NCBI RefSeq assembly: GCF_016744025.1
Contig: NZ_JADGFC010000001.1
Span: 16,028 to 80,027 of the forward strand
Direction: 5' to 3'
Origin: Sulfurimonas sp.
GTDB taxonomy: Bacteria > Campylobacterota > Campylobacteria > Campylobacterales > Sulfurimonadaceae
DNA length: 64,000 nucleotides
Made by a program: the position numbers and the translations under genes. The notes beneath the pieces were generated by a model. The model was not told where the DNA came from and did no database searches. It worked only from the letters and a program-made list of their open reading frames with translations. Positions 14,339 to 32,067 of the stretch are shown in pieces. Within the stretch, counting starts at the first letter, position 1; each line of letters opens with the position of its first letter.

Positions 14339-14352
14339 TTGATGTATATCAA
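14339..14352. promoter_or_regulatory. FNR/CRP-family (Dnr/NnrR-type) binding box
   Basis: TTGATGTATATCAA is a perfect match to TTGAT-N4-ATCAA. It lies in the divergent intergenic region 14247-14384. Confidence 0.55.
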
Positions 14353-14384: not shown

Positions 14385-14576
14385 ATGACTCAAGACATAG
14401 TAATCATATTAGTAATGGCAGTACCTATGATACTCTTTGGCATCTACCCAGGCCTTAAATTAGGGGAGATTCTTGAGCGTAAGTATAATATAAACGAAAG
14501 TCAAAAAAGAAAAGTTATGATTATCACAACCATTGCATTTACGATAACTTTATCCTCTTTACTATACTACTTATAA
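14385..14576 (+). CDS. Small membrane protein (63 aa)
   Basis: Two hydrophobic helices; RBS AAAGG upstream. No recognisable family. Confidence 0.4.
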   Translation: MTQDIVIILVMAVPMILFGIYPGLKLGEILERKYNINESQKRKVMIITTIAFTITLSSLLYYL

Positions 14577-14667
14577 TATAATTTATACTAATCTTATTCC
14601 ACCTGCTTGTTTCATAAAGTTACATAGAATATAAAACTTTCCTTAAATTTTAAATTAATCTAATAAA

Positions 14668-14681
14668 TTGATTTATATCAA
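14668..14681. promoter_or_regulatory. FNR/CRP-family (Dnr/NnrR-type) binding box
   Basis: TTGATTTATATCAA is a perfect TTGAT-N4-ATCAA. Its centre is about 75 bp upstream of ATG 14750; TAGACT -10-like hexamer at 14705-14710. Confidence 0.6.
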
Positions 14682-14749
14682 TTCTTTTTCATCTAAATCA
14701 CAATAGACTACACCTGATTCTGAAAAACTATAAATAAAAAGGAGATATC

Positions 14750-15076
14750 ATGATTGAAGAAGTAGTAATGAGACAAGATATTGCTTTAGACGATTTCTTA
14801 CCAATTTTCATATCATCCTCTCTTGTTTTAGTATTTGGAGGATTCTATGTTGGTATATATACAGCTGTAAAAGTTAAACTACTCAAAAAATGGACTATGC
14901 CTATCGCATATATATTTTGGATGTTAACTGCCTACTGCTTGTATTTAATGGGAAGTTTAATGCATGTAGGGGAATTTACGGCTAAGGCTCTAGTAGTTGC
15001 TGCAATTGGATTATTTTTACTTCCACACGCAGTCTATTTTATGCAGCATCAAGTTCACGAAGAAAATGAACATTGA
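14750..15076 (+). CDS. Three-helix membrane protein encoded directly upstream of norC
   Basis: 108 aa with three hydrophobic segments. AAGGAG RBS; 41 bp from norC. Confidence 0.5.
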   Translation: MIEEVVMRQDIALDDFLPIFISSSLVLVFGGFYVGIYTAVKVKLLKKWTMPIAYIFWMLTAYCLYLMGSLMHVGEFTAKALVVAAIGLFLLPHAVYFMQHQVHEENEH

Positions 15077-15117
15077 TATCATGTATATATTTCAACAGCA
15101 ATTTATAGGAGGTCACA

Positions 15118-15804
15118 GTGGCTAAAACATCCGTATGGAGTGACAATCGATTCTGGCAGCGTTCAGCAGGTTGGATCACAGGGTTTGCAGCAGTATTACT
15201 TATTTGGCTAACTTTTGACACAGCTGGTCAAATAGCAATGGGTACTGATGAAGATTTAAAAAATGGCGTAACTAAAAGAGTCCCAGGACCTACAGTTATT
15301 AACTATAAAATCACTTATGAAATGAGTGATAAACGTGGTCATGAGGTACCTTATATAGGTGGTAATGATGGTAAGGGTGGTTCACTTTTTCAAGAAAAAC
15401 AAAAGTTTTTTGGAAGAGATGATTACTCAGAAGAAGAAGCAGCAGCTTTACTTCACCTAGGTAAACTAGGATCTCAAACTAAAAACTGTATGAATTGTCA
15501 TACACTACTTGGAAATGGAGCATATTATGCACCAGATTTAACTAAAGCTTGGTTAGATCCAGCTTGGCAAGATGATGGTACGATGCAAGCAATGACTGGC
15601 AAAAGTACAAAAGAAGAGGCTATGGCTGAATTCTTACAACATCCATCTACTTATCCTACTCATGCTCGTATGATGCCAGATCTTGGTATTACAGCTGAAG
15701 AGGCAAAAGGTTTAGTTGCTTTCTTGAAACATATGTCATCTATTGACACAAACGGTTTCCCAAGAAACTTTGGAAAAATTCGAGGAGCAGTAAATGGCAA
15801 ATAA
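15118..15804 (+). CDS. norC: Nitric oxide reductase subunit C (membrane-anchored monohaem cytochrome c)
   Basis: GTG start after AGGAGG. N-terminal anchor, single CMNCH haem site, overlaps norB. Confidence 0.85.
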   Translation: MAKTSVWSDNRFWQRSAGWITGFAAVLLIWLTFDTAGQIAMGTDEDLKNGVTKRVPGPTVINYKITYEMSDKRGHEVPYIGGNDGKGGSLFQEKQKFFGRDDYSEEEAAALLHLGKLGSQTKNCMNCHTLLGNGAYYAPDLTKAWLDPAWQDDGTMQAMTGKSTKEEAMAEFLQHPSTYPTHARMMPDLGITAEEAKGLVAFLKHMSSIDTNGFPRNFGKIRGAVNGK

Positions 15805-17227
15805 TCACTTAACAGGTATTGGAAGTGAATCAAAACAGTTAGCGACATGGTATTTTACTTTTGCAGCTATACTTTTTGGTGCACAATTATTATTTGGTTT
15901 AGTTGCAGCTATTCAGTATGTAATGCCAGGTTTCTTATTTGAGTTATTAGACTTCTCGGTTGCTAGAATGTTACACATCAATGCACTTGTTGTATGGATG
16001 GTATTTGCTATGTTTGGCTCAGTATATTGGTTACTACCTGATGAAACCGGGATTGAGACAATCGGTATCAAAATTGGTAAACTATTATACTGGGTATTCG
16101 TAGCAGCAATCGTTGTTGTTGTATTAGTATATTTATTCGTTCAAGTTGGACCGGCAGATGAAACATCTATCTGGTTTATACATGAAGGTCGTGAGTATAT
16201 TGAAGCACCTCGTTGGGCTGACTTCGGTATCGTTGTAGTTGCACTTGGATTCGTTGCTAACCTTTTCTTGACAGGAACTGCTGGTAATCGTTCAGGTATT
16301 GTTACAGTACTTATGGCTGATATGATCGCTTTTGCTGGTCTTTACTTAGCAGGTATGTTCTTTACAGATAATATCTCTGTAGATCAGTACTGGTGGTGGT
16401 GGGTAATTCACTTATGGGTTGAAGCTACTTGGGAAGTTTATGTTGGTGCTATTGCTGCATATGGTCTAATCACTATGATTGGAGCACATCGTAAAGTTGT
16501 TGAAATGTGGTTATGGATTGAAGTAGCAATGCTATTTGGTTCAGGTATCTTAGGTATCGGTCATCACTATTTCTGGATTGGTACACCTGAGTACTGGTGG
16601 GAAATTGGAGCATTATTTAGTGCACTAGAGCCATTACCACTTGTTGCTATGTTTATCCACGTTCTTTATGACTGGGGAAAAACACAAGGTGCTCAAGATG
16701 CTACTGGGGTAGAAGTTTCAGTTATTAATAATAAGCCTGCGTTTACATGGTTTGTTCTTAATGCATTCGGAAACTTCTTAGGTGCTGGTATATGGGGATT
16801 CTTCCATACATTACCACAAGTAAATCTGTATACTCATGGTACACAGTTTACTTCAGCACACGGACACCTTGCGTTCTTTGGTGCTTATGCAACTATCCTT
16901 ATAGGTATGATGTATATTGCTGTTCAAGGAACAAATGGTATTAAAGTTATGAAACACACTAAGTCTTCTCTCTGGGCTGTTAGTATGATTTGTGGTGGTG
17001 TTATGGGTATGACAGTTGCACTTACTGTTGCTGGTTACGTTCAAGTTCTTGTTTCTCGTGCACAAATGGGTGCTACTTGGGCAGGTTACTTTGACGGACA
17101 AAGTGGTATGTGGTTTGCACAAGCAATGGATTGGAGACTGGTTATGGGTGCGGTTACGTTCCTAGGTTTCTTATTCTTAGCTAAAGATTTACTGTCTACT
17201 GGCAAAAACCCAGTACACGAAAGATAA
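15794..17227 (+). CDS. norB: Nitric oxide reductase subunit B (cNOR haem-copper oxidase family)
   Basis: 12-TM protein with conserved HLWVE, GIGHHYFW and HGHLAFFGAY histidine motifs of NorB. Confidence 0.92.
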   Translation: MANNHLTGIGSESKQLATWYFTFAAILFGAQLLFGLVAAIQYVMPGFLFELLDFSVARMLHINALVVWMVFAMFGSVYWLLPDETGIETIGIKIGKLLYWVFVAAIVVVVLVYLFVQVGPADETSIWFIHEGREYIEAPRWADFGIVVVALGFVANLFLTGTAGNRSGIVTVLMADMIAFAGLYLAGMFFTDNISVDQYWWWWVIHLWVEATWEVYVGAIAAYGLITMIGAHRKVVEMWLWIEVAMLFGSGILGIGHHYFWIGTPEYWWEIGALFSALEPLPLVAMFIHVLYDWGKTQGAQDATGVEVSVINNKPAFTWFVLNAFGNFLGAGIWGFFHTLPQVNLYTHGTQFTSAHGHLAFFGAYATILIGMMYIAVQGTNGIKVMKHTKSSLWAVSMICGGVMGMTVALTVAGYVQVLVSRAQMGATWAGYFDGQSGMWFAQAMDWRLVMGAVTFLGFLFLAKDLLSTGKNPVHER

Positions 17228-17238
17228 GGGGAATTATT

Positions 17239-17391
17239 ATGTTTGAACCAATGACAGATGTCGTACCAAGCTTTTTTGCTTGGTTAAATCAGGGTCCATT
17301 GACTCTAACTATTTTTCTTCACACTGTGATTATACTTCCAATGTTTTGGATTTATAAACAAGAAAAAACTCGTTTAGAGAAAGAAAGTTAA
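17239..17391 (+). CDS. Small membrane protein (50 aa) downstream of norB
   Basis: Hand translation MFEPMTDVVPSFFAWLNQGPLTLTIFLHTVIILPMFWIYKQEKTRLEKES. AAGGGGA RBS 11 nt after the norB stop. Confidence 0.4.
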   Translation: MFEPMTDVVPSFFAWLNQGPLTLTIFLHTVIILPMFWIYKQEKTRLEKES

Positions 17392-17408
17392 GAAAAGTCA
17401 ATTTGTTG

Positions 17409-17426
17409 GCGGGCCTTCGGGCCTGC
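17409..17426 (+). terminator. GC-rich hairpin with TTCG loop (partial terminator or processing/stability element)
   Basis: GCGGGCC-TTCG-GGCCTGC: 7-bp stem with one G:T pair. Striking GC island in AT-rich DNA between 17239..17391 and nirS. Only a weak T tract follows. Confidence 0.45.
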
Positions 17427-17454
17427 TCTATCTAATTTTAAAAGGAAGAATAAA

Positions 17455-19095
17455 ATGAGATTAAATAAGTTAGTTATGTCAGCTGCTGCATTAGCAGTAG
17501 TTAGTTCGGGGTTATTTGCTGGAACATCTTCAATGGATGTTGAAAAAGTATTTGAAAGAGAATGTCAGGGTTGTCACGGTCCAAATCACGAAGGTGGTGT
17601 TGGTTCTGATTTACGTCCTACTGTAATTGCTAAGAAGAATGCTTATAAGCTTTCTGAAATTATTTTAGGTGGTAAAGCTGGTACAGCAATGCCTCCATTT
17701 GCAGAGAAAATGAATATTGACGATGCAAATAAAATGGTTGATTACTTACAAAGCTTTAAGGGTAGAAAAATGGCTGTATTAACACTTGATAGTGTTAAAG
17801 CTGGTTGGAAACCTTTAAATGACAGAGCGGCTTTCTTTAAGAAATATCCAAAAGCTGTAGATGTTAAGAAAAATACTGACATTTGTTTCGTAACAGAAAG
17901 AGATGCTGAAAGAGTTGCATTTGTTGATGGTACTTCTGGTAAAGTTTTATCTAAGCACCCTGCTGGTTTTGCTGTACACGTTACAGTAACTAACAAGCGT
18001 CAGCCTCGTTATGCTTACTCAATCTCTCGTTCAGGTTTAGTAACAATGTTCGACCTTAACACTCCGGGTCAACAAAAAATTGCTCAAACTCAAGTTGGTT
18101 CTGACTCACGTGGTCTAGCAGTTTCTCCAGATGGTAAATACCTAATGGCTGGTAACTACGTTCCAGGTGGAGCAATCCTAATGGACGCAATGACTCTTGA
18201 GCCATTAAAAGTTTATCCTACTTCATCAGTAATTGATACAGAAGGTAATATTAACTCTTCTCGTGTTGCTGGTATTTATGACACTCCATATGGTCCATAC
18301 ATTGCATTTGCACTTAAAGATGCAGGTCACGTATATATCATAGATTACTCTAAGCCTAATTTCCCAATCGTTGGTGATATTCCAAATATTGGTAAAATTC
18401 TTCATGATGGTTTCCTAAACGAAGGTAAAGAAATAGGTCGTTACTTATTCCAAGCTTCTCAAGGTTCTGATGTTATGGGTGTTGTAGACTTTAAAACTAA
18501 ATCTTTAGTTACTAAAATCTATACAGGTCCATCTGCTAAGCCACATCCAGGTCAAGGTTCTTCATGGTTTAATGAAGGTCTAGGTCAACAACTTGGTGCA
18601 ACAGTTAACATGAACTTAGGTCAAGTTACTATCTGGGATGATAACTTCGATGTAATTCGTCAAATTCCAACTGCTGGTGGTGGTTTATTCATCGGTACAT
18701 CTGAGCACACTCCATTCCTATGGGCTGATAATGTTCTTGGTGGAGCTTCTAACTGGAACAAGATTTACTTAATTAATAAGCAAACTCTTGAAGTAGATAG
18801 AATTCTTACTGTTGGTACTAAAAAGGGAACAATTACTGATCCTGTAAGTCACAAGACTCTTTACTCTTGGAATGTTCCAACTGTTAAAGATGCAAAAGGT
18901 AAGGTTGTTACACCTAGAATCCTTCACGCTGAGCCTGCTAATCATGGTGCGTGGACTATGATTTCTGAGTGGAACGCTGGTCGTATCGGTATCTATGAAG
19001 CTAAAACTGGTAAATTTGTTAAATATATCAAAGGTTTAACAACTCCTACTTTTACTTACTCTATCGAACACAGACAAACTATTCCAGGTGCATAA
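17455..19095 (+). CDS. nirS: Cytochrome cd1 nitrite reductase
   Basis: Signal peptide, N-terminal haem c site CQGCH with downstream GTAMPPF, then a ~430-aa beta-propeller d1 domain. Confidence 0.93.
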   Translation: MRLNKLVMSAAALAVVSSGLFAGTSSMDVEKVFERECQGCHGPNHEGGVGSDLRPTVIAKKNAYKLSEIILGGKAGTAMPPFAEKMNIDDANKMVDYLQSFKGRKMAVLTLDSVKAGWKPLNDRAAFFKKYPKAVDVKKNTDICFVTERDAERVAFVDGTSGKVLSKHPAGFAVHVTVTNKRQPRYAYSISRSGLVTMFDLNTPGQQKIAQTQVGSDSRGLAVSPDGKYLMAGNYVPGGAILMDAMTLEPLKVYPTSSVIDTEGNINSSRVAGIYDTPYGPYIAFALKDAGHVYIIDYSKPNFPIVGDIPNIGKILHDGFLNEGKEIGRYLFQASQGSDVMGVVDFKTKSLVTKIYTGPSAKPHPGQGSSWFNEGLGQQLGATVNMNLGQVTIWDDNFDVIRQIPTAGGGLFIGTSEHTPFLWADNVLGGASNWNKIYLINKQTLEVDRILTVGTKKGTITDPVSHKTLYSWNVPTVKDAKGKVVTPRILHAEPANHGAWTMISEWNAGRIGIYEAKTGKFVKYIKGLTTPTFTYSIEHRQTIPGA

Positions 19096-19104
19096 TTAGC
19101 ACTT

Positions 19105-19126
19105 GTTACAAAACTTTCTCTCCCTC
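19105..19126 (+). terminator. Hairpin after nirS
   Basis: TTTCTCTCCC-TC-GGGAGAGAAA inverted repeat 10 nt after the nirS stop. Confidence 0.45.
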
Positions 19127-19180
19127 GGGAGAGAAAACTTCTTTAAACTACAATCAATATTTCTTAAAAAATTTACAAAA

Positions 19181-19194
19181 TTGACTAATATCAA
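19181..19194. promoter_or_regulatory. FNR/CRP-family (Dnr/NnrR-type) binding box
   Basis: TTGACTAATATCAA has one mismatch to TTGAT-N4-ATCAA. It lies in the 218-bp gap upstream of the cytochrome c-nirJ-nirF-cobA genes. Confidence 0.5.
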
Positions 19195-19313
19195 CGATAT
19201 ATTTATAAATAAAAGCTATTCTTAAAAGAATAAAAAATGACAAATTCTAGATTTTAAAAGCTTTGATTAAAGCTAGTTTTCGATAGAATAATTTATCAAA
19301 ATAAAGAATAAAT

Positions 19314-19619
19314 ATGAAAAAATACATACTCTTAATACTTATAATATCTTCTCTTTTATACTCTCAGGACTCTGATGGTAAAAAAGTCTTTGAGAGCTAC
19401 TGTTGGGGCTGTCATCACCAGACTGCTGTTGCATTTGGACCTCCATTCTCAGAAATTGCTTCTAAACGAACACAAGATGAAATCGAAGCATATATCATAG
19501 AACCAAAAGCAATGTACAAGGCATTTGGATATAAAAGAACAGTAATGACTGAGTTAAAATTAAACGACAAAGAGAGACAAGCTATAGCTAAATATATTCT
19601 CTCATATAAAGGCAAATAA
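19314..19619 (+). CDS. Periplasmic monohaem cytochrome c (NirC/c55X-like position)
   Basis: Signal peptide and single CWGCH. Stop overlaps the nirJ start. Confidence 0.75.
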   Translation: MKKYILLILIISSLLYSQDSDGKKVFESYCWGCHHQTAVAFGPPFSEIASKRTQDEIEAYIIEPKAMYKAFGYKRTVMTELKLNDKERQAIAKYILSYKGK

Positions 19620-20734
19620 TGTTTAGACTAACAAATCTTATATCTTCTGTAGTAGAAGGCAAAAAAGAAAGAATTTTAGACGGCTCGATAGCTATATGGA
19701 ACTTTACAAATCGCTGTAACTTATCTTGTATGCATTGTTATTCAAAATCAACTCTTGATGAAGTTGACACTCTGACTACTGAACAAATCAAAAAAACTAT
19801 ATTACAAATGAAAGAAAACGGTGTAAAGTTCATTATTTTCTCTGGAGGAGAGCCTCTTACAAGAAAAGACTTATTTGATATAGCCGATTTTTGTAAAGAT
19901 AACGGAATCATTACTTATCTATCAAGTAATGGTTTATACTTCACAAAAAGCAATGTACAACGCATAGTTGATACATTTAACTATGTTGGAGTGAGTATAG
20001 ATGGAGATGAGCCTACTCATGATCACTTTCGTGGTCTTAAAGGTGCATTTAGAGAGACCCTTAAAGCTGTTCAACTTGCAAACTCTACAGGTGCAAAAGT
20101 TGGTATTCGTTTCACTATTACAAAAGAAACAATTAATTCATTAGAATATATTTTTGATCTAGTTGAAAAAGAAAATATTCCAAAGATATATATCTCGCAT
20201 CTTGTTTATTCAGGTCGTGGTCTTGATAATCTTGAAATGGATCTTACAAAAGAACAAAGAAGAAAATCTGTAGAGTTCATACTTAAAAAAGCATTTGAGT
20301 ACTACGATACTGGCAGAGATATCGAGATAGTAACTGGGAATATGGAACAAGATGCAATCCTTTTCTTAAATGAGTTTGCATCTAGATATCCTGAGCTAAA
20401 AGAAAAAATTAGAAATAGACTTACAAACTGGGGAGGAAACTCAGCTGGTAGAAAACTTCTTAACATTAACAGTGAAGGCGATGTAAGACCTGACCCTTTC
20501 TTTCCAATAACTGTTGGAAACATCATTGAGCAAGATTTTGGTGATATCTGGCAAAAAGGCGAACTATTAGATAAGCTTAGAGTTCACCCAAGAGACGTTA
20601 GTGGAATCTGTAAGGATTGTGAACAAATAGATATCTGTAATGGTGGTTCACGTGCTCGTGCATACGCTATTACAGGTGATTTATGGAGTGAAGATCCATC
20701 ATGTTATTTAAGCCAAGAGGAGAGAAAACAATAA
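19619..20734 (+). CDS. nirJ: Radical SAM haem d1 biosynthesis protein NirJ
   Basis: CNLSCMHC radical SAM cluster motif. C-terminal SPASM-like CKDCEQIDICNGG. Located between nirS and nirF. Confidence 0.8.
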   Translation: MFRLTNLISSVVEGKKERILDGSIAIWNFTNRCNLSCMHCYSKSTLDEVDTLTTEQIKKTILQMKENGVKFIIFSGGEPLTRKDLFDIADFCKDNGIITYLSSNGLYFTKSNVQRIVDTFNYVGVSIDGDEPTHDHFRGLKGAFRETLKAVQLANSTGAKVGIRFTITKETINSLEYIFDLVEKENIPKIYISHLVYSGRGLDNLEMDLTKEQRRKSVEFILKKAFEYYDTGRDIEIVTGNMEQDAILFLNEFASRYPELKEKIRNRLTNWGGNSAGRKLLNINSEGDVRPDPFFPITVGNIIEQDFGDIWQKGELLDKLRVHPRDVSGICKDCEQIDICNGGSRARAYAITGDLWSEDPSCYLSQEERKQ

Positions 20735-21870
20735 TGATAATTAAAAAAATATTACTTGGTGCTATAGTTACAGCATCTATTCTGACAAATATTCAAGCAC
20801 AAGGTGTAAACCCAGTTTTAGCAATGCTTAACACAGAAGAGAAAATTTTTGTTGTTGAGAGAGAAAGTCAATCTCTAGCTGTTATTGAAAAGGGCTTACC
20901 AAAATCTCATATTAGCGGAATGCACAATATGAATCACGGTGTTGTTAAGTTTGACGGTAAAGATGGTTATGTAATCTCTCGTGATGGTTATGTAATTAAA
21001 TTTGATCCCGTAAAAGAAGTTATTTTAAAAGAGCAAAAGACTAGTGACAGTGCAATTGGTTTTACTATTACAAAGAACTATCTTGCTGTTGCAAACTATG
21101 CTAAAAAGAGTGTAGATATTTTAGATAGAGATTTAAATCCTCTTCAGTCATTTGAGACTGGTTCTAAAAATGTTGGTATTAAGACTTACAAGAATTATTT
21201 AGTTTTTTCACAAATGGATAACGACAAAATCACTGTTTTAAGAGACAAAAATGATGGAAAAGGTCTTCCAAACTTTGAGATATACAAAGAGTTTGAAGAT
21301 GTTGGAGTTATGCCTTTTGACGCAATGATAAAAGACAATAATTTTATTACAGGTTTTTTTCAAAGTGATCACTTTGGTGTTGTTAATTTAGACACTATGA
21401 AATACTCAAAAATCAAAATACTTTTAGATGACAGAAAACCTGTACTTAAAGTTCCACACTTTGGTTTTTGGAGTATTGGTGCTGGATATGTATTTATCCC
21501 TGCTGTTGGAAACAACAAAGTACTAGTTTATACACCTGATTTTAAATTCGTAAAAAACATTGAAACAGAAGGTTTACCTGTATTTACAGCTCTATCACCT
21601 GATAAAAAATATTTAGCAGTAACATTTAGTGGAAAGAAATTTCCAGTTATTCAAATCATTGATACTAAAACTCTAAAAATCGTTAAAAGATTTGAGTTTG
21701 ATGGAAAAGTTCTTCATGTAAGATGGTCAAATATCAGACCTAACCTTTATGTATCTGTAAATGACACGAATAAAGTTGCTGTAATAAATACTAAACAATG
21801 GTATTTAAGTCGTGAGATATTTCAAATCAAAAAGCCATCTGGCATATTTATTTATGAGGAAAAACAATAA
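20735..21870 (+). CDS. nirF: NirF-like cd1-family beta-propeller protein (no haem c site)
   Basis: Signal peptide MIIKKILLGAIVTASIL. Propeller-like repeats, no CxxCH. ATG directly follows the nirJ stop. Confidence 0.7.
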
Positions 21871-22610
21871 TGGGTAAGGTATATTTAACGGGAGCTGGTC
21901 CAGGAGACATTGAGTTACTAACAGTCAAAGCACTTAGAGTAATCAAAGAAGCTGATGTAATTATTTACGATCGTCTTGCTAACCCTGATTTACTTGAAGA
22001 AGCGAAGAATGGCTGTGAGTTCGTGTACGTTGGTAAAGAAGATGGACGTCATATCGTACCTCAAGATGATATCAATGAAGTAATTTATCAAAATGCACTA
22101 AAGCATGACAATGTTGTTCGCCTTAAAGGTGGAGATCCTTTTGTTTTTGGTCGCGGTGGAGAAGAAGCTCTTTATTTACAAGAAAGAGGTGTTAAATTTG
22201 ATGTAATTCCAGGTATTACTTCTGCAATCTCTGCTCCTGCATATGCAGGTATTCCTGTTACTCATCGTGGTGTAGCAGTAAGCTTTAGAGTTGTTACTGG
22301 ACATGAATCACCAAATAAAAAAGTATCTCAAATTCCATGGAATCATTTTAAAACAGATGATACTATTGTATTTTTAATGGGTCTTCATAATCTTCCAAAG
22401 ATAAGTAAGAAACTAATTGAGATTGGAAAAGCTAAAGACTATCCTGTAGCTGTAATCTCAAAAGGAACAACAAAAGATCAAATTGTTGTTGTTGGAACTT
22501 TAGAAAACATAGTTGAAAAAGCTAAAGACGTACCAACACCTGCATTAATAGTAGTAGGAAAGGTAGTTGAGCTTAGAGAACAACTGAAGTGGTTTGAGGG
22601 TAATGCCTAA
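21870..22610 (+). CDS. cobA: Uroporphyrinogen-III C-methyltransferase (SUMT; NirE role in d1 haem synthesis)
   Basis: VYLTGAGPGDIELLTVKA, RLKGGDPFVFGRGGEE and VIPGITSA motifs. Confidence 0.9.
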   Translation: MGKVYLTGAGPGDIELLTVKALRVIKEADVIIYDRLANPDLLEEAKNGCEFVYVGKEDGRHIVPQDDINEVIYQNALKHDNVVRLKGGDPFVFGRGGEEALYLQERGVKFDVIPGITSAISAPAYAGIPVTHRGVAVSFRVVTGHESPNKKVSQIPWNHFKTDDTIVFLMGLHNLPKISKKLIEIGKAKDYPVAVISKGTTKDQIVVVGTLENIVEKAKDVPTPALIVVGKVVELREQLKWFEGNA

Positions 22611-24114
22611 TCCTCTTCACGACTACAAGCAGCCCATAGAGATAGCTGATAGCATCTACTGGGTTGGTATGTATCTTGAAAATGATCCATTTCAATGTCA
22701 CCCCTACTTTATTAAAAATGGAGATGAGTCTATCTTAATAGACCCAGGTTCTATGCTTGAATTTAACGAAACTGTGAGAAAAGTCAAAAGTATCGCAGAT
22801 ATCAAATCTATTAAATACATCATCCTACACCATCAAGATCCTGACTTAGCAGCAGCTGTTCCCGAGATAGAAAAACTAATTGATAGAGATGACCTTCTAA
22901 TTGTTACTCACTCTAGAATGTCTGTATTGATAAAACACTATCTTGTAAGTTCAGACTATTATGAGATAGATAAACATGATAATACTCTAATTACCTCAAA
23001 TGGTTACAAATTAGATTTTCTTACTACTCCATACTGTCACTCACCGGGTGCTTTTGTTAGTTATGAGCCAAATACTAAAACACTATTCTCAGGAGATATA
23101 TTTGGCGGGATAGAAGAATCATGGGAGTTTTATGCAGATGCAACATATTTTGAAAAAGCAAAACAATTCCATCAAGAGTATATGCCAAGTAAGGACATAT
23201 TTAACTATGCCCTTAATAAGATAGAACAACTAGATATCCAACTAATAGCTCCTCAGCATGGTTCAATTATTAAAAAACCTTACATTAAAAACCTCATAGA
23301 AGATATGAAAAACCTTGATTGTGGGCTTTATATAGAAGATAAATATAATCGTGAACTATTAGATACTATTAATAAACTTCAAGAAAAAGAAAAAACTATT
23401 AAAGAGAGAGATAGACTCCTATTTGAGCAGTCTAAAAGAGCAGAAATGGGTGAAATGGTAGGAAACATCGCGCATCAGTGGCGTCAACCCTTAGCCATAG
23501 TAAACACTTTAGTTGCAATATTAAAAGAGAAAAATGAAGTTGGTATTTTAGACAGAGCTGAAATCTCTTCTAAACTAGATACGATGGAAAAACGGGTTGT
23601 ATATATGTCAGATACTATCGAAGACTTTATGAATTACTATAAGCCAAACAAAAACAAATCAGTTTTTAGTGTTTACACTGCCATAACTAAAGCACTTGAA
23701 ATTACAAACTATAATAAAGAAAGTGAAAAAGTAGATATAAATATTAATGGAGACAAAAATCTTAATATCTATGGTCTTATGAACGAGTTTATACAAGTAA
23801 TTGTTTCTATACTCTCTAATATATATGATATCAAGAAAAGCAGGTCTATAACTAATATAAAGATAGATATAATTCTTCAAAGAGAAAATGAAGATGCTGT
23901 ACTTTGTATTAGTGATAATGCTGGTGGAATAGACGAAAGCATACTAACAAAGATTTTCAATCCATACTTTACAACAAAACATCAATCTATGGGGACTGGT
24001 TTAGGTTTACATATTGCTAAAATGATTATAGAAGACCAGATGGATGGTAAACTACAAGCACACAACAATAGCCTTGGAGCAACATTTACAATAAGGATGA
24101 AGAATGAAAAATAG
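22603..24114 (+). CDS. Sensor histidine kinase with N-terminal flavodiiron/ODP-like metallo-beta-lactamase domain
   Basis: First ~250 aa: FDP-like MBL fold with candidate metal ligands HHQDPD, CHSPG, SGD, PQHG. Then a coiled coil, H-box NIAHQWRQPL and ATPase G-boxes (DNAGGI, GTGLGL). Confidence 0.75.
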   Translation: MPNPLHDYKQPIEIADSIYWVGMYLENDPFQCHPYFIKNGDESILIDPGSMLEFNETVRKVKSIADIKSIKYIILHHQDPDLAAAVPEIEKLIDRDDLLIVTHSRMSVLIKHYLVSSDYYEIDKHDNTLITSNGYKLDFLTTPYCHSPGAFVSYEPNTKTLFSGDIFGGIEESWEFYADATYFEKAKQFHQEYMPSKDIFNYALNKIEQLDIQLIAPQHGSIIKKPYIKNLIEDMKNLDCGLYIEDKYNRELLDTINKLQEKEKTIKERDRLLFEQSKRAEMGEMVGNIAHQWRQPLAIVNTLVAILKEKNEVGILDRAEISSKLDTMEKRVVYMSDTIEDFMNYYKPNKNKSVFSVYTAITKALEITNYNKESEKVDININGDKNLNIYGLMNEFIQVIVSILSNIYDIKKSRSITNIKIDIILQRENEDAVLCISDNAGGIDESILTKIFNPYFTTKHQSMGTGLGLHIAKMIIEDQMDGKLQAHNNSLGATFTIRMKNEK

Positions 24115-24793
24115 TGAATTAATTGAAGATATTTCAATACTCATAGCTGAAGATGAATCAGAGTTAAGAGAGTATCTACAAGAGTATTTACAAATTTTCT
24201 TTAAAAAAGTATATATAGCTAAATGTGGTAATGAAGGCTATATGCAGTACTTAGAAAAGAGACCTGATATCATTTTAACTGATATTAATATGCCAAATCT
24301 TGATGGATTAAGCATGATTAAACGTATTAGAGAACGTGATGATGAAACTGATATTATCATTATGAGTGCTCACTCTGAGCAAGAAAAACTTCTTCAAGCT
24401 ATAGAGCTTAAACTAGTAACTTATCTTATAAAGCCTATAAACTCACAAAAGCTAAAAGGTGTTTTACTAAGTCTTGTAGATAAACTAAGATCTTCTAAGA
24501 AGAGGATTTATCTAAGTCAAGAGATCTTTTGGGATAAGACCTCTTCTACTCTATGGAACTCAGAGAAACAGATCTCTTTAAAAGATAAAGAATTGATGTT
24601 GTTTAAACTTCTATGCTCAAAAGTAAATCATGCTTTTACAGCAGAAAATATCTTTTACCATCTATATGGAGAAGGTGAAAAAGAGTTCTCAGAGTACTCA
24701 ATAACATCATTCATAAAACGTCTGAGAGCAAAACTCCCAGAGAACCTAATAGAAAATGAGTATGGATTAGGTTATAAAATAGTACTAAAATAA
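24104..24793 (+). CDS. Response regulator (REC + OmpR-type winged helix)
   Basis: ILIAEDE...DIILTDINMPNLDG receiver motifs. C-terminal ...FIKRLRAKL...GLGYKI winged-helix pattern. Overlaps the kinase stop. Confidence 0.85.
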   Translation: MKNSELIEDISILIAEDESELREYLQEYLQIFFKKVYIAKCGNEGYMQYLEKRPDIILTDINMPNLDGLSMIKRIRERDDETDIIIMSAHSEQEKLLQAIELKLVTYLIKPINSQKLKGVLLSLVDKLRSSKKRIYLSQEIFWDKTSSTLWNSEKQISLKDKELMLFKLLCSKVNHAFTAENIFYHLYGEGEKEFSEYSITSFIKRLRAKLPENLIENEYGLGYKIVLK

Positions 24794-24808: not shown

Positions 24809-24836
24809 AAAATCAGAACTTATAAATTCTGATTTT
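24809..24836. terminator. Bidirectional terminator hairpin
   Basis: AAAATCAGAA-cttataaa-TTCTGATTTT: 10-bp stem between convergent genes. T run follows on the + strand. Confidence 0.55.
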
Positions 24837-25968
24837 ATTTAATAGTAAGCATTTCTTGGATGCCTATCGATTGCTTAATTATATCTTTTGCAGTAATACC
24901 CGCCATTTTTGCTAAAACTGGATTTATAAGATAACTTACCCATGTAGTTTTAACTATATCACCCTTTTGCAACTTAGGTACCTTGTATGTAATTACCTTA
25001 GAACTATTCGCTCTTAAATTTCTATTGAGTTTATATCCTAGGGCTTTGTTTGGCAAAGTAGCTTTACCATCTATATCTTTGAATATAATAACAAAGGTAG
25101 CTTCCTTATCATTTGCAGGATCTTCTTTAAAGTTACTCCAAATGATTTTAGAATCTCTTGTAATAATAGTTTTGGCATACTTTAATCTCATTGGATGAGT
25201 AATTATAGCGTGACCCATTTTATTGTTTATTGTAAGTTTAAGTTGTGAATTTTTATAAGAGAGTTCCAGTTTTACTGCTTTTTTTATCATTTTTTGAGAG
25301 TGTACCCCTAAAAACTCATGTGATACATAACTCTCTCTCATTCCCTTATCTTTTTTCTCAATAGTTCCAGAAGTTCTTGGCATATGACAACCTATACAAT
25401 CTGTTTGTTTGTCATATCCTTTTTCTACATTACAGACTTCAAAACCTATATAGTTTTGTTTATGTGCATGACATCCCATACAGACTTCAGAGGTTTTATA
25501 TATCTCATTAGACTCAGAATAATGTTCATTACTCTCATATGCTTTTTTAAGATTTCCAAATACAGTCGGTTTTTTGTCACCACTATAGTTTGAATAATTT
25601 ATTTTATGTGCTGGAGAGTCATAAATCTTTTTTATTTGATGACAAAAAAAGCATGAAACTCCATCTGTCTGTCTATACTTTGTTGAGTCAGGCTGTTCCT
25701 TTCCACTCATCATAGCACGCATATTTTTTGTTGCAGGCATATGGCATACTGCACAACCGTATTCATTTTTGTTTACTATATCTTTCATTGTTGCATGAAA
25801 TTCATCTTTAAAAAGAGACGACTTAGGATGCATAGATGATTGGTGCTCACGATATATATTTTCATGACACTCGTTACAGGATTCAGAAGATGGATATTTT
25901 ACTTCAGCATTAGCGCTAATAGTAAGAAGTAGTAAAATAGATAGAAGAAAGTTCACAATATACTCCAT
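24835..25968 (-). CDS. Periplasmic pentahaem c-type cytochrome (paralog of the soluble part of 11657..13474)
   Basis: Signal peptide. CNECH, CAVCH, CFFCH, CMGCH, CIGCH with the same order and spacing as the 605-aa protein (GVSCFFCH vs GVSCVTCH). Confidence 0.8.
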   Translation of the reverse strand: MEYIVNFLLSILLLLTISANAEVKYPSSESCNECHENIYREHQSSMHPKSSLFKDEFHATMKDIVNKNEYGCAVCHMPATKNMRAMMSGKEQPDSTKYRQTDGVSCFFCHQIKKIYDSPAHKINYSNYSGDKKPTVFGNLKKAYESNEHYSESNEIYKTSEVCMGCHAHKQNYIGFEVCNVEKGYDKQTDCIGCHMPRTSGTIEKKDKGMRESYVSHEFLGVHSQKMIKKAVKLELSYKNSQLKLTINNKMGHAIITHPMRLKYAKTIITRDSKIIWSNFKEDPANDKEATFVIIFKDIDGKATLPNKALGYKLNRNLRANSSKVITYKVPKLQKGDIVKTTWVSYLINPVLAKMAGITAKDIIKQSIGIQEMLTIK

Positions 25969-26008: not shown

Positions 26009-26710
26009 TTAATATTTTTCTAGATTATACTTAGACCATAAGAGCTGTGCATCTTTATTTCCACTATCTTTTGATTTTTGTGCCCATTTTTTTGCTTTTT
26101 TAAACTTTTCTGCTTCACAATATATCTCTGCTAAAAGATAATAAGCTTTCTCATCACCATTTGCCGCATTTTTTTCTAACCAAAAAGCAGCTTTATCAAA
26201 CTTGATAAGTTGCATATATACAAGACCTACATTTTTCTCTGCAAGCTTATTACCTTGAAGTGCAGATTTTTCTAAAAGCTCTGCTGTTTTTGAGACATTT
26301 TGATCTGCTACGTCACCTCTGTAATACATTAGGGCTAAGTTAAACTGAGCATTAGAGTTCTTCGCATCTGAAGCCTTTGTAAGCCATTTAAATGCACTCT
26401 TAGAGTCTTGCTTAATATTGCGACCTGTTAAGTACATCATACCTAGATCATTTTGTGCTCTGGCATCTGAGCTATTTGCAGCTTTTTGCAACCAAACAAG
26501 ACCTTTATCAGCATCTTTAGAGATACCTAGACCATTAAAGTATAGATAACTTAGTGCATTTTGAGCAGTAGTATCTCCAGCTTTTGCACTCTTTTCATAT
26601 AGCTTAAAAGCCACCTCATAGTCTTTTTTCTTAAATGCTTCAAGAGCATCTTTACTCTCTGCAAAAAGGGCTGTTGTTATCAACAACATAGATAGAACAA
26701 GCTTTAACAT
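26009..26710 (-). CDS. Secreted Sel1-like repeat protein
   Basis: Signal peptide. Repeats of AQN.L..(M/L)Y..G.G(I/V)..D...A..W..KAA. Confidence 0.8.
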   Translation of the reverse strand: MLKLVLSMLLITTALFAESKDALEAFKKKDYEVAFKLYEKSAKAGDTTAQNALSYLYFNGLGISKDADKGLVWLQKAANSSDARAQNDLGMMYLTGRNIKQDSKSAFKWLTKASDAKNSNAQFNLALMYYRGDVADQNVSKTAELLEKSALQGNKLAEKNVGLVYMQLIKFDKAAFWLEKNAANGDEKAYYLLAEIYCEAEKFKKAKKWAQKSKDSGNKDAQLLWSKYNLEKY

Positions 26711-26718
26711 TAGAATCC

Positions 26719-27144
26719 TTATTTATTATTATTACAATTTTTCATCATCTCTCGCCAATCTAGAGAGAAGTTTTTTAATACAAATGATTTGTGATGTGGA
26801 ACACTACATGGTGAACAGTTTTGATGGATTACACCCTTACCTACAAATTCTTCGCCATTACCTACATCACACTTACTAAGCACAGTAAACTCATCTTTAG
26901 TCTCTAAAGAATCATCATTAAACCTAAAGTTAGGACAAGCACACATATAACAGTTTAACTCATCCATATCATGGCACTTTTTATTCTTTTTATAAAGAGG
27001 ACAAAAGTCAATTTCTTCTTTTACCATATTATCAAAATCAAAATACTCAACTATGTCTTGTGTTGAGTAACCTGACTCTACTAACTTATCTACTATTACT
27101 TTATGCTTATTAGCATGGGCGTCAAACCACTTAATATAACTCAT
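26719..27144 (-). CDS. Cysteine-rich small-domain protein (putative metal/cluster binding)
   Basis: FCPLYKKNKKCHDMDELNCYMCACPNF plus later C..C.SPCS. Resembles the cysteine-rich small domain (zf-like, PF04071-type) pattern; from memory. Confidence 0.4.
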   Translation of the reverse strand: MSYIKWFDAHANKHKVIVDKLVESGYSTQDIVEYFDFDNMVKEEIDFCPLYKKNKKCHDMDELNCYMCACPNFRFNDDSLETKDEFTVLSKCDVGNGEEFVGKGVIHQNCSPCSVPHHKSFVLKNFSLDWREMMKNCNNNK

Positions 27145-31891: not shown

Positions 31892-32067
31892 ATTATTGCA
31901 ATTATACCCTAGATATATTACTTAATTAATACAATAGCATAAATAGCCAATACGCCGATGTTTCAAATAGTTATAAATAACGTAATTAAATTTCGTAAAG
32001 TTTATACTTATAATTACTATAAAAGAGTAGTAATGTATAATATGTCTTCATAAAAGGATAATAGATA

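What the first reader, a model, noticed from the sequence alone, without database searches (positions are those of the whole stretch)
22603..24793. Two-component system whose kinase senses through a flavodiiron/ODP-like di-metal domain, fused onto the end of the d1-haem operon
The kinase has no TM segment. Its first ~250 aa are a flavodiiron-protein-type metallo-beta-lactamase fold with candidate ligands HHQDPD, CHSPG, SGD and PQHG. In FDPs and in the ODP chemotaxis sensor this fold binds a di-iron centre that reacts with O2 and NO. Here it is joined by a coiled coil to a HisKA/HATPase core. The gene overlaps cobA/nirE by 8 nt and is followed by an OmpR-type regulator. This suggests a cytoplasmic NO/O2 sensor wired to denitrification. 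Such a kinase architecture has, to my knowledge, not been characterised functionally.
Basis: partly seen in the sequence, partly recalled or inferred. Interest (0 to 1): 0.65.

Follow-up and report, generated by a model that had tools for sequence, protein, structure and literature searches.

The report
Di-iron ODP sensor kinase in denitrification operon
A Sulfurimonas bacterium ends its nitrite-reductase cofactor operon with a soluble two-component kinase whose sensor is an ODP-type di-iron domain, known elsewhere to bind oxygen; this is a real, widely conserved but untested candidate for how these denitrifiers sense oxygen or nitric oxide.

Summary
Window 22603-24114 encodes a 503-aa kinase with no membrane segment. 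Residues 1-245 are an ODP-family metallo-beta-lactamase domain (Pfam PF19583, E 3e-61). The AlphaFold2 model has pLDDT 92.7, and its best PDB matches are the ODP oxygen sensors (TM 0.82). All seven ODP-type metal ligand positions are invariant in 83 orthologues. An OmpR-type regulator follows at 24104-24793. The 8-nt overlap with cobA/nirE recurs in 48 of 53 nir-linked loci.

The kinase-regulator pair sits at the end of norCB-nirS-haem d1 clusters in about 50 Sulfurimonas and Sulfuricurvum genomes. Sister clades place it in front of the anaerobic ribonucleotide reductase genes nrdDG, or alone in Sulfurovum. That spread points to oxygen or anaerobiosis sensing more than to NO-specific sensing.

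The nor promoter, and the promoter of the operon that holds the kinase, carry conserved Crp/Fnr-type class II boxes, so the pair is a second regulatory layer, not the sole switch. A conserved 10-bp direct repeat upstream of nor is a candidate regulator site.

ODP domains are common N-terminal sensor modules, mostly joined to GGDEF domains. I found no paper that tests an ODP-fused kinase. This is a new variant of a known kind. The ligand and the regulon remain untested.

The parts
22603..24114 (+). Soluble sensor histidine kinase, 503 aa, made of an ODP di-iron domain, a helical linker, a DHp domain and a catalytic ATPase domain
   Evidence: ORF. Pfam finds ODP, HisKA and HATPase_c. There is no TM segment. 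Homologues of 503 aa start at the same ATG.
22603..23337 (+). ODP-type metallo-beta-lactamase sensor domain (aa 1-245). Candidate di-iron ligands are H77, D79, D81, H146, D165, Q218 and H219. Clade-specific invariant residues are C32, H33, H103, R105, C145, H190 and C240.
   Evidence: PF19583 E 3e-61. Aligned to solved ODPs and a flavodiiron protein. AF2 pLDDT 92.7. Foldseek top hits are ODP 6qwo/6qrq at TM 0.82. Residue invariance.
23338..23445 (+). Helical linker (aa about 246-281) between the sensor domain and the DHp domain
   Evidence: Helices 242-260 and 270-313 appear in the low-confidence full-length model. The sequence is charged and heptad-like. This part is inferred.
23446..24105 (+). 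Kinase core: DHp with phospho-acceptor H291 (AHQWRQPL), then the catalytic domain with N-box, DxGxG and GTGLGL motifs
   Evidence: HisKA 26.7 bits and HATPase_c E 3e-15. H291, N406, D438, G442, G464, G466 and G468 are conserved in orthologues.
24104..24793 (+). OmpR/PhoB-type response regulator, 229 aa, with receiver Asp D60 in TDINMP and a winged-helix output domain
   Evidence: Response_reg E 8e-25 and Trans_reg_C E 1.4e-11. It overlaps the kinase stop by 11 nt. It is always adjacent to the kinase in related loci.
21870..22610 (+). cobA/nirE, uroporphyrinogen-III C-methyltransferase. Its stop overlaps the kinase start by 8 nt.
   Evidence: TIGR01469 E 7e-91. Overlap seen. The same 8-nt overlap occurs in 48 of 53 loci.
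19314..21870 (+). Cytochrome c, nirJ (radical SAM) and nirF-like genes, the upstream genes of the same tightly packed operon
   Evidence: Pfam and NCBIfam hits. Gene junctions overlap or abut.
19181..19222 (+). Candidate class II Crp/Fnr-type promoter of the cytc-nirJ-nirF-cobA-kinase-regulator operon: TTGACTAATATCAA, 22 nt, then TATTCT
   Evidence: Conserved with the same spacing in 12 loci of the window's subclade. The function is inferred.
19115..19136 (+). Terminator-like hairpin after nirS that separates nirS from the haem d1/kinase operon
   Evidence: The stem is conserved in the alignment of the nirS-cytc spacer.
14668..14709 (+). Class II Crp/Fnr-type promoter of hyp108-norCB: TTGATTTATATCAA, 22 nt, then TAGACT
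   Evidence: The box is present at a fixed distance in 37 of 37 loci. A -10 hexamer TA(A/G)ACT lies 22 nt downstream in nearly all of them.
14609..14624 (+). Conserved direct repeat GTTTCA-N4-GTTACA with a 10-bp period, a candidate binding site for the OmpR-type regulator, about 50 nt upstream of the Crp/Fnr box
   Evidence: Phylogenetic footprint. Related repeats TTGACA-N4-(T/G)TGACA sit at the -35 position of promoters next to the regulator gene in sister clades. A hybrid GTGACA-N4-GTTACA lies upstream of nirS in L009. Binding is not shown.
14750..19095 (+). hyp108 membrane protein, norC, norB, a 50-aa ORF and nirS, the structural denitrification genes upstream
   Evidence: The synteny recurs in about 50 loci.
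24809..24836 (.). Hairpin between the regulator gene and the convergent multihaem cytochrome gene, the likely end of the operon
   Evidence: The sequence read shows ATCAGAA ... TTCTGAT flanked by A and T runs. The function is inferred.

Best explanation
The locus is a cytoplasmic two-component system.

The kinase. It senses through an N-terminal ODP-type non-haem di-iron domain. This domain has a metallo-beta-lactamase fold and the ligand set H77, D79, D81, H146, D165, Q218, H219. A helical linker carries the signal to a dimeric DHp/ATPase core with phospho-acceptor H291. That core phosphorylates the adjacent OmpR-type regulator at D60.

Expression. In this Sulfurimonas the pair forms the last two cistrons of the cytc-nirJ-nirF-cobA operon, and the kinase gene is translationally coupled to cobA. 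The operon is transcribed from a Crp/Fnr-type class II promoter. The sensor is therefore made together with the nitrite-reductase cofactor machinery.

Most likely signal. O2 binds the diferrous centre and forms a peroxo-diferric adduct, as in the chemotaxis ODP. NO is a second possible ligand. My inference is that the ligand-free reduced form favours kinase activity and the O2- or NO-bound form switches it off.

Output. The phosphorylated regulator would bind 10-bp-spaced direct hexamer repeats. It would act together with the Crp/Fnr-type factor at the nor promoter here, and at nirS in L009. In sister clades it would act as the main activator of nrdDG and of a small RNA.

Shown: the fold, the ligand set, the intact kinase and receiver motifs, the conserved gene coupling and the conserved promoter elements. 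Inferred: the metal, the ligand, the sign of the response and the regulator's binding site.
For: - Domain identity: Pfam ODP E 3e-61. Sequence matches to solved ODPs at E 6e-27. AF2 pLDDT 92.7 and Foldseek TM 0.82 to ODP 6qwo/6qrq/6r9n, ahead of flavodiiron cores.
- Ligands: seven positions are invariant in diverse ODP domains and in 83 orthologues. The ODP-specific Gln before the last His is present; its role as a ligand in T. maritima ODP is stated in PMC7785958.
- Kinase and regulator: the motifs are intact, and the kinase has no TM segment.
- Gene coupling: the nor-nir-d1-kinase-regulator order occurs in 53 loci, 48 of them with the same 8-nt overlap.
- Anaerobiosis theme: sister clade B2 has thioredoxin-kinase-regulator-nrdD-nrdG in 6 of 6 loci. 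nrdDG is oxygen-sensitive, as are the radical SAM enzyme NirJ and denitrification itself (established knowledge).
- Promoters: Crp/Fnr boxes with N22 spacing to a -10 hexamer occur upstream of nor in 37 of 37 loci, upstream of the kinase-bearing operon in 12 loci, and upstream of the Sulfurovum kinase genes.
- Candidate regulator boxes: direct repeats occur almost only at homologous promoter positions across 1.1 Mb of related loci. A hybrid site lies in front of nirS in L009.
- Need for such a sensor: a review states that Campylobacterota lack FNR, ArcA and NarP orthologues and that regulation in the free-living members is unknown (PMC6682613).
- Precedent for the chemistry: the ODP of T. denticola senses O2 and Fe(II) through a stable peroxo di-iron species and lowers CheA phosphorylation. 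This comes from Muok et al. 2019 PNAS, which I know from memory and from citing papers, not from reading the paper.
Against: - No biochemical or expression data exist for any ODP-fused kinase, and no RNA runs match this sequence.
- The metal could be Zn or mixed, since ODP crystals also exist in a Zn form (6qwo).
- Linkage to nir is clade-specific. Sulfurovum orthologues lie between ilvIH and ppx, and L007 keeps the pair without the nor-nir block.
- The nor promoter already has a Crp/Fnr site that could account for all O2/NO control.
- The window's direct repeat (GTTTCA/GTTACA) differs from the repeats beside the regulator gene in sister clades (TTGACA). It lies far upstream, at about -100, so its assignment to this regulator is tentative.
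- As a bare pattern the repeat is not enriched in the window (3 hits against 1.9 expected).
- The kinase clade has invariant residues that the chemotaxis ODPs lack (C32, H33, H103, R105, C145), so its ligand chemistry may differ.
Confidence: 0.5

Rival explanations
1. The kinase is an NO-specific feedback sensor. The di-iron site binds NO made by NirS, as flavodiiron NO reductases do, and the system balances NirS and NorCB levels to keep NO low.
For: The pair is co-transcribed with the cofactor genes of the NO-producing enzyme and lies next to norCB. The fold is shared with flavodiiron NO reductases at TM about 0.8. A candidate regulator site lies upstream of norCB.
Against: The domain is ODP-type, not flavodiiron-type, and the only tested ODP senses O2 and Fe(II). 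Sister clades control nrdDG or stand alone, with no NO-related neighbours. The nor promoter carries a Crp/Fnr-type box, which is the usual route of NO control (NnrR/DNR/Nss types).
Confidence: 0.2
2. The kinase is an iron-availability sensor. Occupancy of the labile di-iron site reports cytoplasmic Fe(II), and the system matches the synthesis of iron-rich haem d1, cytochromes and iron-sulfur or radical enzymes to the iron supply.
For: T. denticola ODP mediates responses to Fe(II) as well as O2 (Muok 2019, recalled from memory). ODP crystals exist in apo, Zn and Fe forms (PDB titles). The regulated neighbours are iron-demanding: haem d1, NirJ and NrdG. One relative lies directly after NifU (L082).
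Against: No iron uptake or storage genes flank the pair in any context examined. Fur is the general iron sensor. Occupancy sensing and O2 sensing are not mutually exclusive.
Confidence: 0.12
3. The adjacency has no functional meaning. The pair is a general redox or unknown-signal system that was captured at the end of the nir cluster in one lineage and controls unrelated genes.
For: Orthologues occur in other contexts. L007 retains the pair without the nor-nir block. No B-type repeat is present in any intergenic region of the window.
Against: The 8-nt translational coupling is kept in 48 of 53 loci across kinases that have diverged to 60% identity. The pair shares a promoter with the haem d1 genes. 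A conserved direct repeat sits in the nor promoter, and in the nirS promoter in L009.
Confidence: 0.13
4. The N-terminal domain is an enzyme, either a hydrolase or an O2/NO scavenger, rather than a sensor, and it is only fused to a kinase.
For: The metallo-beta-lactamase fold is usually catalytic, and flavodiiron proteins reduce O2 and NO.
Against: There is no flavodoxin or other electron-donor domain. The ligand set is that of the sensor ODP. The same domain is fused to GGDEF, EAL, SpoIIE, MCP and cyclase outputs, which is the hallmark of a sensor module.
Confidence: 0.05

Closest known systems
ODP, the oxygen-binding di-iron protein of Treponema denticola and Thermotoga maritima (PDB 6qnm, 6qrq, 6qwo, 6r9n; Pfam PF19583)
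   Same: Same Pfam family and same fold (TM 0.82). Same ligand pattern: H-x-D-x-D, H, D and Q-H, including the Gln ligand. The FHxxYM motif and the C-terminal L-x-C-G motif are shared. Both are cytoplasmic sensors that act on a histidine kinase.
   Different: ODP is a stand-alone protein of about 250 aa that works through a sensor-less chemoreceptor on CheA. Here the domain is covalently fused to a HisKA-type kinase with an OmpR-type transcription regulator, so the output is gene expression rather than motility. Identity is about 26-30%. The residues C32, H33, H103, R105 and C145, invariant here, are absent from the solved ODPs.
Flavodiiron proteins (Moorella FprA 1ycf, E. coli NorV/flavorubredoxin, D. 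gigas ROO 1e5d)
   Same: The di-iron metallo-beta-lactamase core is shared (TM about 0.8), and five of the ligand positions align.
   Different: There is no flavodoxin/FMN domain. The motif is H-x-D-x-D-L instead of H-x-E-x-D-H, and a Gln takes the place of the missing His. The expected role is sensing, not catalytic O2/NO reduction.
Gas- and redox-sensing two-component kinases: FixL and DosS/DosT (haem), NreB (iron-sulfur), H-NOX/HnoK and NosP/NahK (NO)
   Same: They follow the same logic: a soluble or cytoplasmic cofactor-bearing sensor controls a histidine kinase that governs anaerobic respiration or NO responses. NCBIfam finds similarity to the FixL kinase core.
   Different: The cofactor and fold of the sensor are unrelated to these. 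It is a non-haem di-iron centre in a metallo-beta-lactamase fold rather than haem-PAS/GAF, an Fe-S cluster, H-NOX or NosP.
Hemerythrin-domain signalling proteins (for example the Vibrio cholerae Bhr diguanylate cyclase and the DcrH chemoreceptor)
   Same: A non-haem di-iron O2-binding domain is used as a signalling input, and most ODP fusions also carry GGDEF.
   Different: Hemerythrin is a four-helix bundle unrelated to the metallo-beta-lactamase fold. This comparison rests on my own knowledge and was not tested here.
Promoters co-dependent on FNR and NarL/NarP in enterobacteria, or on DNR and NarL in Pseudomonas
   Same: The promoter architecture matches: a Crp/Fnr box at class II spacing plus an upstream response-regulator repeat in front of respiratory genes.
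   Different: The regulator here is OmpR-type and its kinase is a cytoplasmic di-iron sensor, not a periplasmic nitrate sensor. Binding has not been demonstrated.

Membership tests
ODP family (Pfam PF19583) | Sequence match to the family model above the curated cut-off | tested here: met
   207 bits against a cut-off of 27.2, with full model coverage 1-194.
ODP family (Pfam PF19583) | Metallo-beta-lactamase alpha-beta-beta-alpha fold closest to the solved ODPs | tested here: met
   AF2 pLDDT 92.7 and pTM 0.90. Foldseek ranks 1-6 are ODP chains at TM 0.79-0.82 and E 1e-21.
ODP family (Pfam PF19583) | Ligand set H-x-D-x-D, H, D and Q-H, with Gln at motif 5 replacing the third His of motif 2 | tested here: met
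   H77, D79, D81, H146, D165, Q218 and H219 align to the ODP motifs. They are invariant. The Gln feature is described in PMC7785958.
ODP family (Pfam PF19583) | Binds two irons and forms an O2 (peroxo) adduct | not testable with these tools
   This needs metal analysis and spectroscopy.
ODP chemotaxis sensor system (ODP plus a sensor-less MCP plus CheA) | A stand-alone ODP genetically coupled to a cytoplasmic chemoreceptor | tested here: not met
   The domain is fused to HisKA/HATPase_c, and no MCP or che genes are seen among the neighbours.
Flavodiiron proteins | C-terminal flavodoxin (FMN) domain | tested here: not met
   There is no flavodoxin hit, and the C-terminus is a kinase core.
Flavodiiron proteins | H-x-E-x-D-H motif | tested here: not met
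   The sequence is H-Q-D-P-D-L.
Two-component sensor histidine kinase (HisKA class) | H-box His in DHp plus N, G1 and G2 boxes in the ATPase domain | tested here: met
   H291 lies in AHQWRQPL. HATPase_c has E 3e-15. N406, D438, G442, G464, G466 and G468 are conserved. HisKA scores 26.7 bits, marginally under the 26.9 cut-off.
Two-component sensor histidine kinase (HisKA class) | Autophosphorylation and transfer to the cognate regulator | not testable with these tools
   Only adjacency and an 11-nt overlap with the regulator gene are shown.
OmpR/PhoB response regulators | Receiver domain with an acidic pocket and phospho-Asp, plus a winged-helix Trans_reg_C domain | tested here: met
   Response_reg E 8e-25 and Trans_reg_C E 1.4e-11. 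E16, D17 and D60 can be read in the sequence.
Crp/Fnr-dependent class II promoters (context) | TTGAT-N4-ATCAA palindrome placed 22 nt upstream of a -10 hexamer | tested here: met
   Found at nor in 37 of 37 loci and at the kinase-bearing operon in 12 loci. The binding protein is not identified, and no Crp/Fnr gene was found among the window ORFs I scanned.

The most novel reading that the evidence does not exclude
The ODP-fused kinase and its regulator are the missing primary O2/NO switch of sulfur-oxidising Campylobacterota, which lack FNR, ArcA and NarXL. It would be a non-haem di-iron sensor kinase in a metallo-beta-lactamase fold, functionally analogous to FixL or NreB. Its regulator would bind GT(T/G)(T/A)CA-N4-GT(T/G)ACA repeats. 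Together with a Crp/Fnr-type factor it would turn on denitrification genes (nor, nirS). In sister lineages it would turn on the anaerobic ribonucleotide reductase and a C-rich small RNA. This would be the first sensor kinase of this cofactor and fold class, and it would define an anaerobiosis regulon in a globally important group of denitrifiers.
Probability: 0.3. Interest if true: 0.72.

Novelty: new variant of a known kind. Interest (0 to 1): 0.55.

Why it matters
Sulfurimonas and its relatives carry out much of the chemolithoautotrophic denitrification in marine redox zones, vents and aquifers. A 2019 review states that these bacteria lack the classical regulators FNR, ArcA and NarP, and that control of their respiratory chains is essentially unknown (PMC6682613).

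This locus offers a concrete, testable candidate:
- a soluble kinase with a complete ODP di-iron site;
- translational coupling to the haem d1 genes in about 50 species;
- defined candidate promoter elements.

If the di-iron domain gates kinase activity with O2 or NO, it would add a new cofactor and fold class to the known gas-sensing kinases. It would also extend ODP from chemotaxis to transcription control, and by implication to c-di-GMP signalling, because most ODP fusions carry GGDEF. Finally, it bears on how N2O- and NO-producing steps are regulated in the environment.

Tried and rejected
- Full-length AF2 model from 40 close homologues. It was poor (pLDDT 61.6, metal-site loops below 50), so I did not use it for any structural claim beyond helix positions. 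I replaced it with a domain model built on a diverse alignment.
- Ligand distances. They could not be measured because model coordinates are not exposed.
- Muok et al. 2019 (PNAS). The paper is not held, so ODP properties come from citing papers and from memory.
- Sievert et al. 2008, the S. denitrificans genome paper. It is not held either.
- RNA evidence for co-transcription.
- Rfam. There are no hits in the window and none for the RNAs downstream of the regulator gene in L057. L052 gave only chance-level hits.
- A Crp/Fnr regulator gene in the window. None was found among the ORFs I scanned.
- Enrichment of the bare Crp/Fnr pattern or the direct-repeat pattern in the window. Neither is significant on its own (9 hits against 8.0 expected; 3 against 1.9). 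Their value comes only from positional conservation across loci.
- B-type repeats (TTGACA-N4-TTGACA) in the window. No convincing intergenic site exists.
- Reading the domain as a flavodiiron enzyme. Rejected because there is no flavodoxin domain and the motif is the wrong one.
- A second ODP paralogue in the window. None exists.

Full report
**Organism and locus**

The window has about 32% G+C. Its kinase is 84% identical to a histidine kinase of Sulfurimonas gotlandica GD1 and 89% identical to one from a Sulfurimonas MAG. The window therefore comes from a Sulfurimonas species, and the source run is a marine metagenome.

On the + strand the gene order is:
- a 63-aa ORF (14385-14576);
- a 108-aa membrane protein (14750-15076);
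- norC (15118-15804) and norB (15794-17227);
- a 50-aa ORF (17239-17391);
- nirS (17455-19095);
- a cytochrome c (19314-19619);
- nirJ (19619-20734);
- a nirF-like cytochrome-d1-domain protein (ending at 21870);
- cobA/nirE (21870-22610);
- the kinase (22603-24114);
- the regulator (24104-24793).

These assignments rest. A convergent multihaem cytochrome gene follows (24835-25968). A hairpin lies between it and the regulator gene.

**Checking the observation**

- The ATG at 22603 overlaps the cobA stop by 8 nt and is preceded by a GAGGG ribosome-binding site.
- Homologues of exactly 503 aa start at the same position.
- Pfam gives ODP (PF19583, E 3e-61, full model), HisKA (26.7 bits, just below the 26.9 cut-off) and HATPase_c (E 3e-15) for the kinase. 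It gives Response_reg plus Trans_reg_C for the regulator.
- No 19-residue stretch reaches transmembrane hydrophobicity; the maximum is 1.36.
- The motifs HHQDPD, CHSPG, SGD and PQHG align with the metal motifs of the solved ODPs and of a flavodiiron protein.

**What the sensor domain is**

It is an ODP-family domain, not a flavodiiron enzyme.
- Flavodiiron proteins have H-x-E-x-D-H plus a flavodoxin domain. This protein has H-Q-D-P-D-L and no flavodoxin domain.
- A survey of the metallo-beta-lactamase superfamily notes that in T. maritima ODP the third His of motif 2 is replaced by a Gln at motif 5 (PMC7785958). The PQHG motif here carries that Gln (Q218).
- In an alignment of 26 diverse ODP domains going down to 35% identity, the invariant residues include exactly H77, D79, D81, H146, D165, Q218 and H219.
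- The same seven residues, and the phospho-acceptor H291, are 100% conserved in 83 orthologous kinases.
- A domain model built on the diverse alignment is confident (pLDDT 92.7, pTM 0.90). Its best PDB matches are the ODP structures (TM 0.79-0.82, E 1e-21), followed by flavodiiron cores at TM about 0.8.
- I could not measure ligand distances because coordinates are not exposed.
- The kinase clade also has invariant residues that the solved ODPs lack: C32, H33, H103, R105 and C145. Their role is unknown.

**How common the architecture is**

A search with the ODP domain against 1.84 billion cluster representatives gave 1293 hits, 216 of them at E 1e-30 or better. In most of these the domain is N-terminal in a longer protein.

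Among the 75 nearest representatives:

| C-terminal domain | Representatives |
|---|---|
| GGDEF | 39 |
| Response_reg | 15 |
| HATPase_c | 11 |
| SpoIIE | 3 |
| EAL | 2 |
| MCP signalling domain | 1 |
| Nucleotide cyclase | 1 |

ODP is therefore a general cytoplasmic sensor module, and the kinase fusion is recurrent but a minority. An ODP-PAS-kinase paralogue lies in an unrelated context in another Campylobacterales genome. Searches of the held literature found no functional work on any ODP fusion.

**Genomic context across relatives**

A scan of one genome per species found 153 relatives, of which 80 loci were retrieved. Synteny mapping and a distance tree give three clades, each with its own context.

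| Clade | Taxa and identity | Context |
|---|---|---|
| A | 53 loci including the window; Sulfurimonas and Sulfuricurvum; 60-89% identical to the window kinase | norCB-nirS-cytc-nirJ-nirF-cobA-kinase-regulator; the 8-nt cobA/kinase overlap is kept in 48 of 53 |
| B1 | Sulfurovum; about 60% identical | Stand-alone pair between ilvIH and ppx |
| B2 | Six loci; 61-64% identical | thioredoxin-kinase-regulator-nrdD-nrdG in six of six |

- Two deeper relatives follow NifU or a CCG-domain protein.
- L007 nests inside clade A but lacks the whole nor-nir block, while keeping the flanking genes on both sides. That is a secondary loss with the pair retained.
- What the contexts share is anaerobic, oxygen-sensitive metabolism rather than NO specifically. 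This fits the only tested property of an ODP, which is O2 and Fe(II) sensing.

**Promoters**

*Crp/Fnr-type boxes*
- Phylogenetic footprinting shows a Crp/Fnr-type palindrome, TTGAT-N4-(A/G)TCAA, at a fixed distance upstream of hyp108-norCB in 37 of 37 loci.
- A -10 hexamer TA(A/G)ACT lies 22 nt downstream, which is class II geometry. In the window the box is at 14668-14681 and the hexamer at 14704-14709.
- The operon that holds the kinase has its own copy: TTGACTAATATCAA (19181-19194), 22 nt, then TATTCT. This is conserved in 12 loci of the window's subclade.
- A terminator-like hairpin after nirS separates the two units.
- Sulfurovum kinase genes are preceded by TTGAT-N4-ATCAT, 22 nt, then TATACT.
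- The two-component genes therefore appear to belong to the regulon of a Crp/Fnr-type factor. This would resemble the Nss regulators of Wolinella mentioned in PMC6682613. No such gene lies among the window ORFs I scanned.

*Candidate regulator site*
- In clades B1 and B2, and in three clade A loci, a direct repeat TTGACA-N4-(T/G)TGACA lies immediately after the regulator gene, 11 nt upstream of a TATAAT or TATACT hexamer. This is the classic position of an OmpR/PhoB-type activator site.
- That repeat drives nrdDG in B2. In Sulfurovum it drives a conserved RNA of about 100 nt with a C-rich loop.
- In clade A a similar repeat, GTTTCA-N4-GTTACA (window 14609-14624), is conserved about 50 nt upstream of the nor Crp/Fnr box.
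- L009 has the hybrid GTGACA-N4-GTTACA plus the Crp/Fnr box plus TAAACT directly upstream of nirS.
- Across 1.1 Mb of related loci, the degenerate pattern hits almost only these homologous positions.
- The recognition helices of the regulators are similar in all clades.
- This makes a co-activation model plausible, but binding is not shown. As a bare pattern the repeat is not enriched in the window.

**Most likely mechanism**

The reduced di-iron ODP domain reports O2, and possibly NO, in the cytoplasm. A helical linker transmits the change to the dimeric kinase core, and the regulator is phosphorylated at D60. The regulator then acts at direct-repeat sites together with a Crp/Fnr-type factor on denitrification promoters. 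Because the pair is transcribed with the haem d1 genes, the sensor is made when the cell commits to nitrite reduction. It can then reinforce or shut down that programme.

The sign of the response (ligand-bound means kinase off) is inferred from the reported effect of peroxo-ODP on CheA. Alternatives that remain open are an NO-specific feedback sensor, an iron-availability sensor, and an unrelated regulon.

**Verdict**

The domain is ODP rather than flavodiiron. The theme is anaerobiosis rather than NO only. The system is a second layer under a Crp/Fnr-type regulator. The architecture is common in sequence databases but untested.
- It is a new variant of a known kind and a good experimental target.

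Noticed in passing
L057:11218-11370 and the homologous places in 14 other Sulfurovum loci; also L019:11161-11250: Immediately after the regulator gene, a TTGACA-N4-TTGACA repeat plus a TATACT hexamer precedes a conserved non-coding stretch. In Sulfurovum it reads AAGAGGTG, a hairpin with a CCCCCCTTGTA loop, then CACCTCT. In L019 the transcript would be about 55 nt and ends in a terminator hairpin. This is a candidate small RNA with a C-rich loop under control of the ODP two-component system. It has no Rfam match. The outer stem is invariant, so there is no covariation support.
   Followed up: partly
L050-L055 (for example L052:8633-14391): A sister clade of the kinase-regulator pair forms a thioredoxin-kinase-regulator-nrdD-nrdG block. 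The nrdD promoter carries the direct repeat at the -35 position, and the leader is about 200 nt long and conserved.
   Followed up: partly
window 14339-14352: A second exact Crp/Fnr-type palindrome, TTGATGTATATCAA, lies 33 nt upstream of a conserved 63-aa membrane ORF (14385-14576) at the head of the nor cluster.
   Followed up: partly
window 17239-17391: A conserved 50-aa hydrophobic ORF lies between norB and nirS and is followed by a GC-rich hairpin. It is also called as a gene in S. gotlandica (L001 4612-4764). Its function is unknown.
   Followed up: no
window 31960-31975: GTTTCAAATAGTTATA resembles the nor-promoter direct repeat with one change. It lies in the intergenic region upstream of an acyl-carrier-protein gene that heads a large cluster of lipid or polyketide type (about 32-58 kb), with ACP, ketoacyl synthases, a glycosyltransferase, an acyltransferase and a short-chain dehydrogenase.
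   Followed up: no
window 10449-13474 and 24835-25968: A di-haem cytochrome c peroxidase (CCP/MauG) gene and two multihaem c-type cytochrome genes flank the nor-nir cluster. A Sel1-repeat protein gene (26009-26710) and a Cys-rich 141-aa protein gene (26719-27144) are syntenic partners downstream of the regulator in most clade A loci.
   Followed up: no
window 19314-22610: The haem d1 operon here contains nirJ, a nirF-like gene and cobA/nirE. No nirD/L/G/H (siroheme decarboxylase) genes lie between nirS and the kinase.
   Followed up: no
L007:1-12252: A Sulfurimonas MAG whose kinase nests in the nir-linked clade (79% identical) lacks the whole nor-nir block. It keeps the DUF6198 and glycosyltransferase genes upstream and the 141-aa and EamA genes downstream. 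The block was therefore lost while the two-component pair was retained.
   Followed up: partly
kinase residues C32, H33, H103, R105, C145 (window 22696-22701, 22909-22917, 23035-23037): These residues are invariant in 83 orthologues, and H103 and R105 are nearly invariant in diverse fused ODP sensors. The solved stand-alone ODPs have other residues at these positions. They could tune ligand chemistry or carry the signal.
   Followed up: partly
window 510-1346: An HNH endonuclease-domain ORF lies near the start of the window in a region of lower G+C (about 27%).
   Followed up: no
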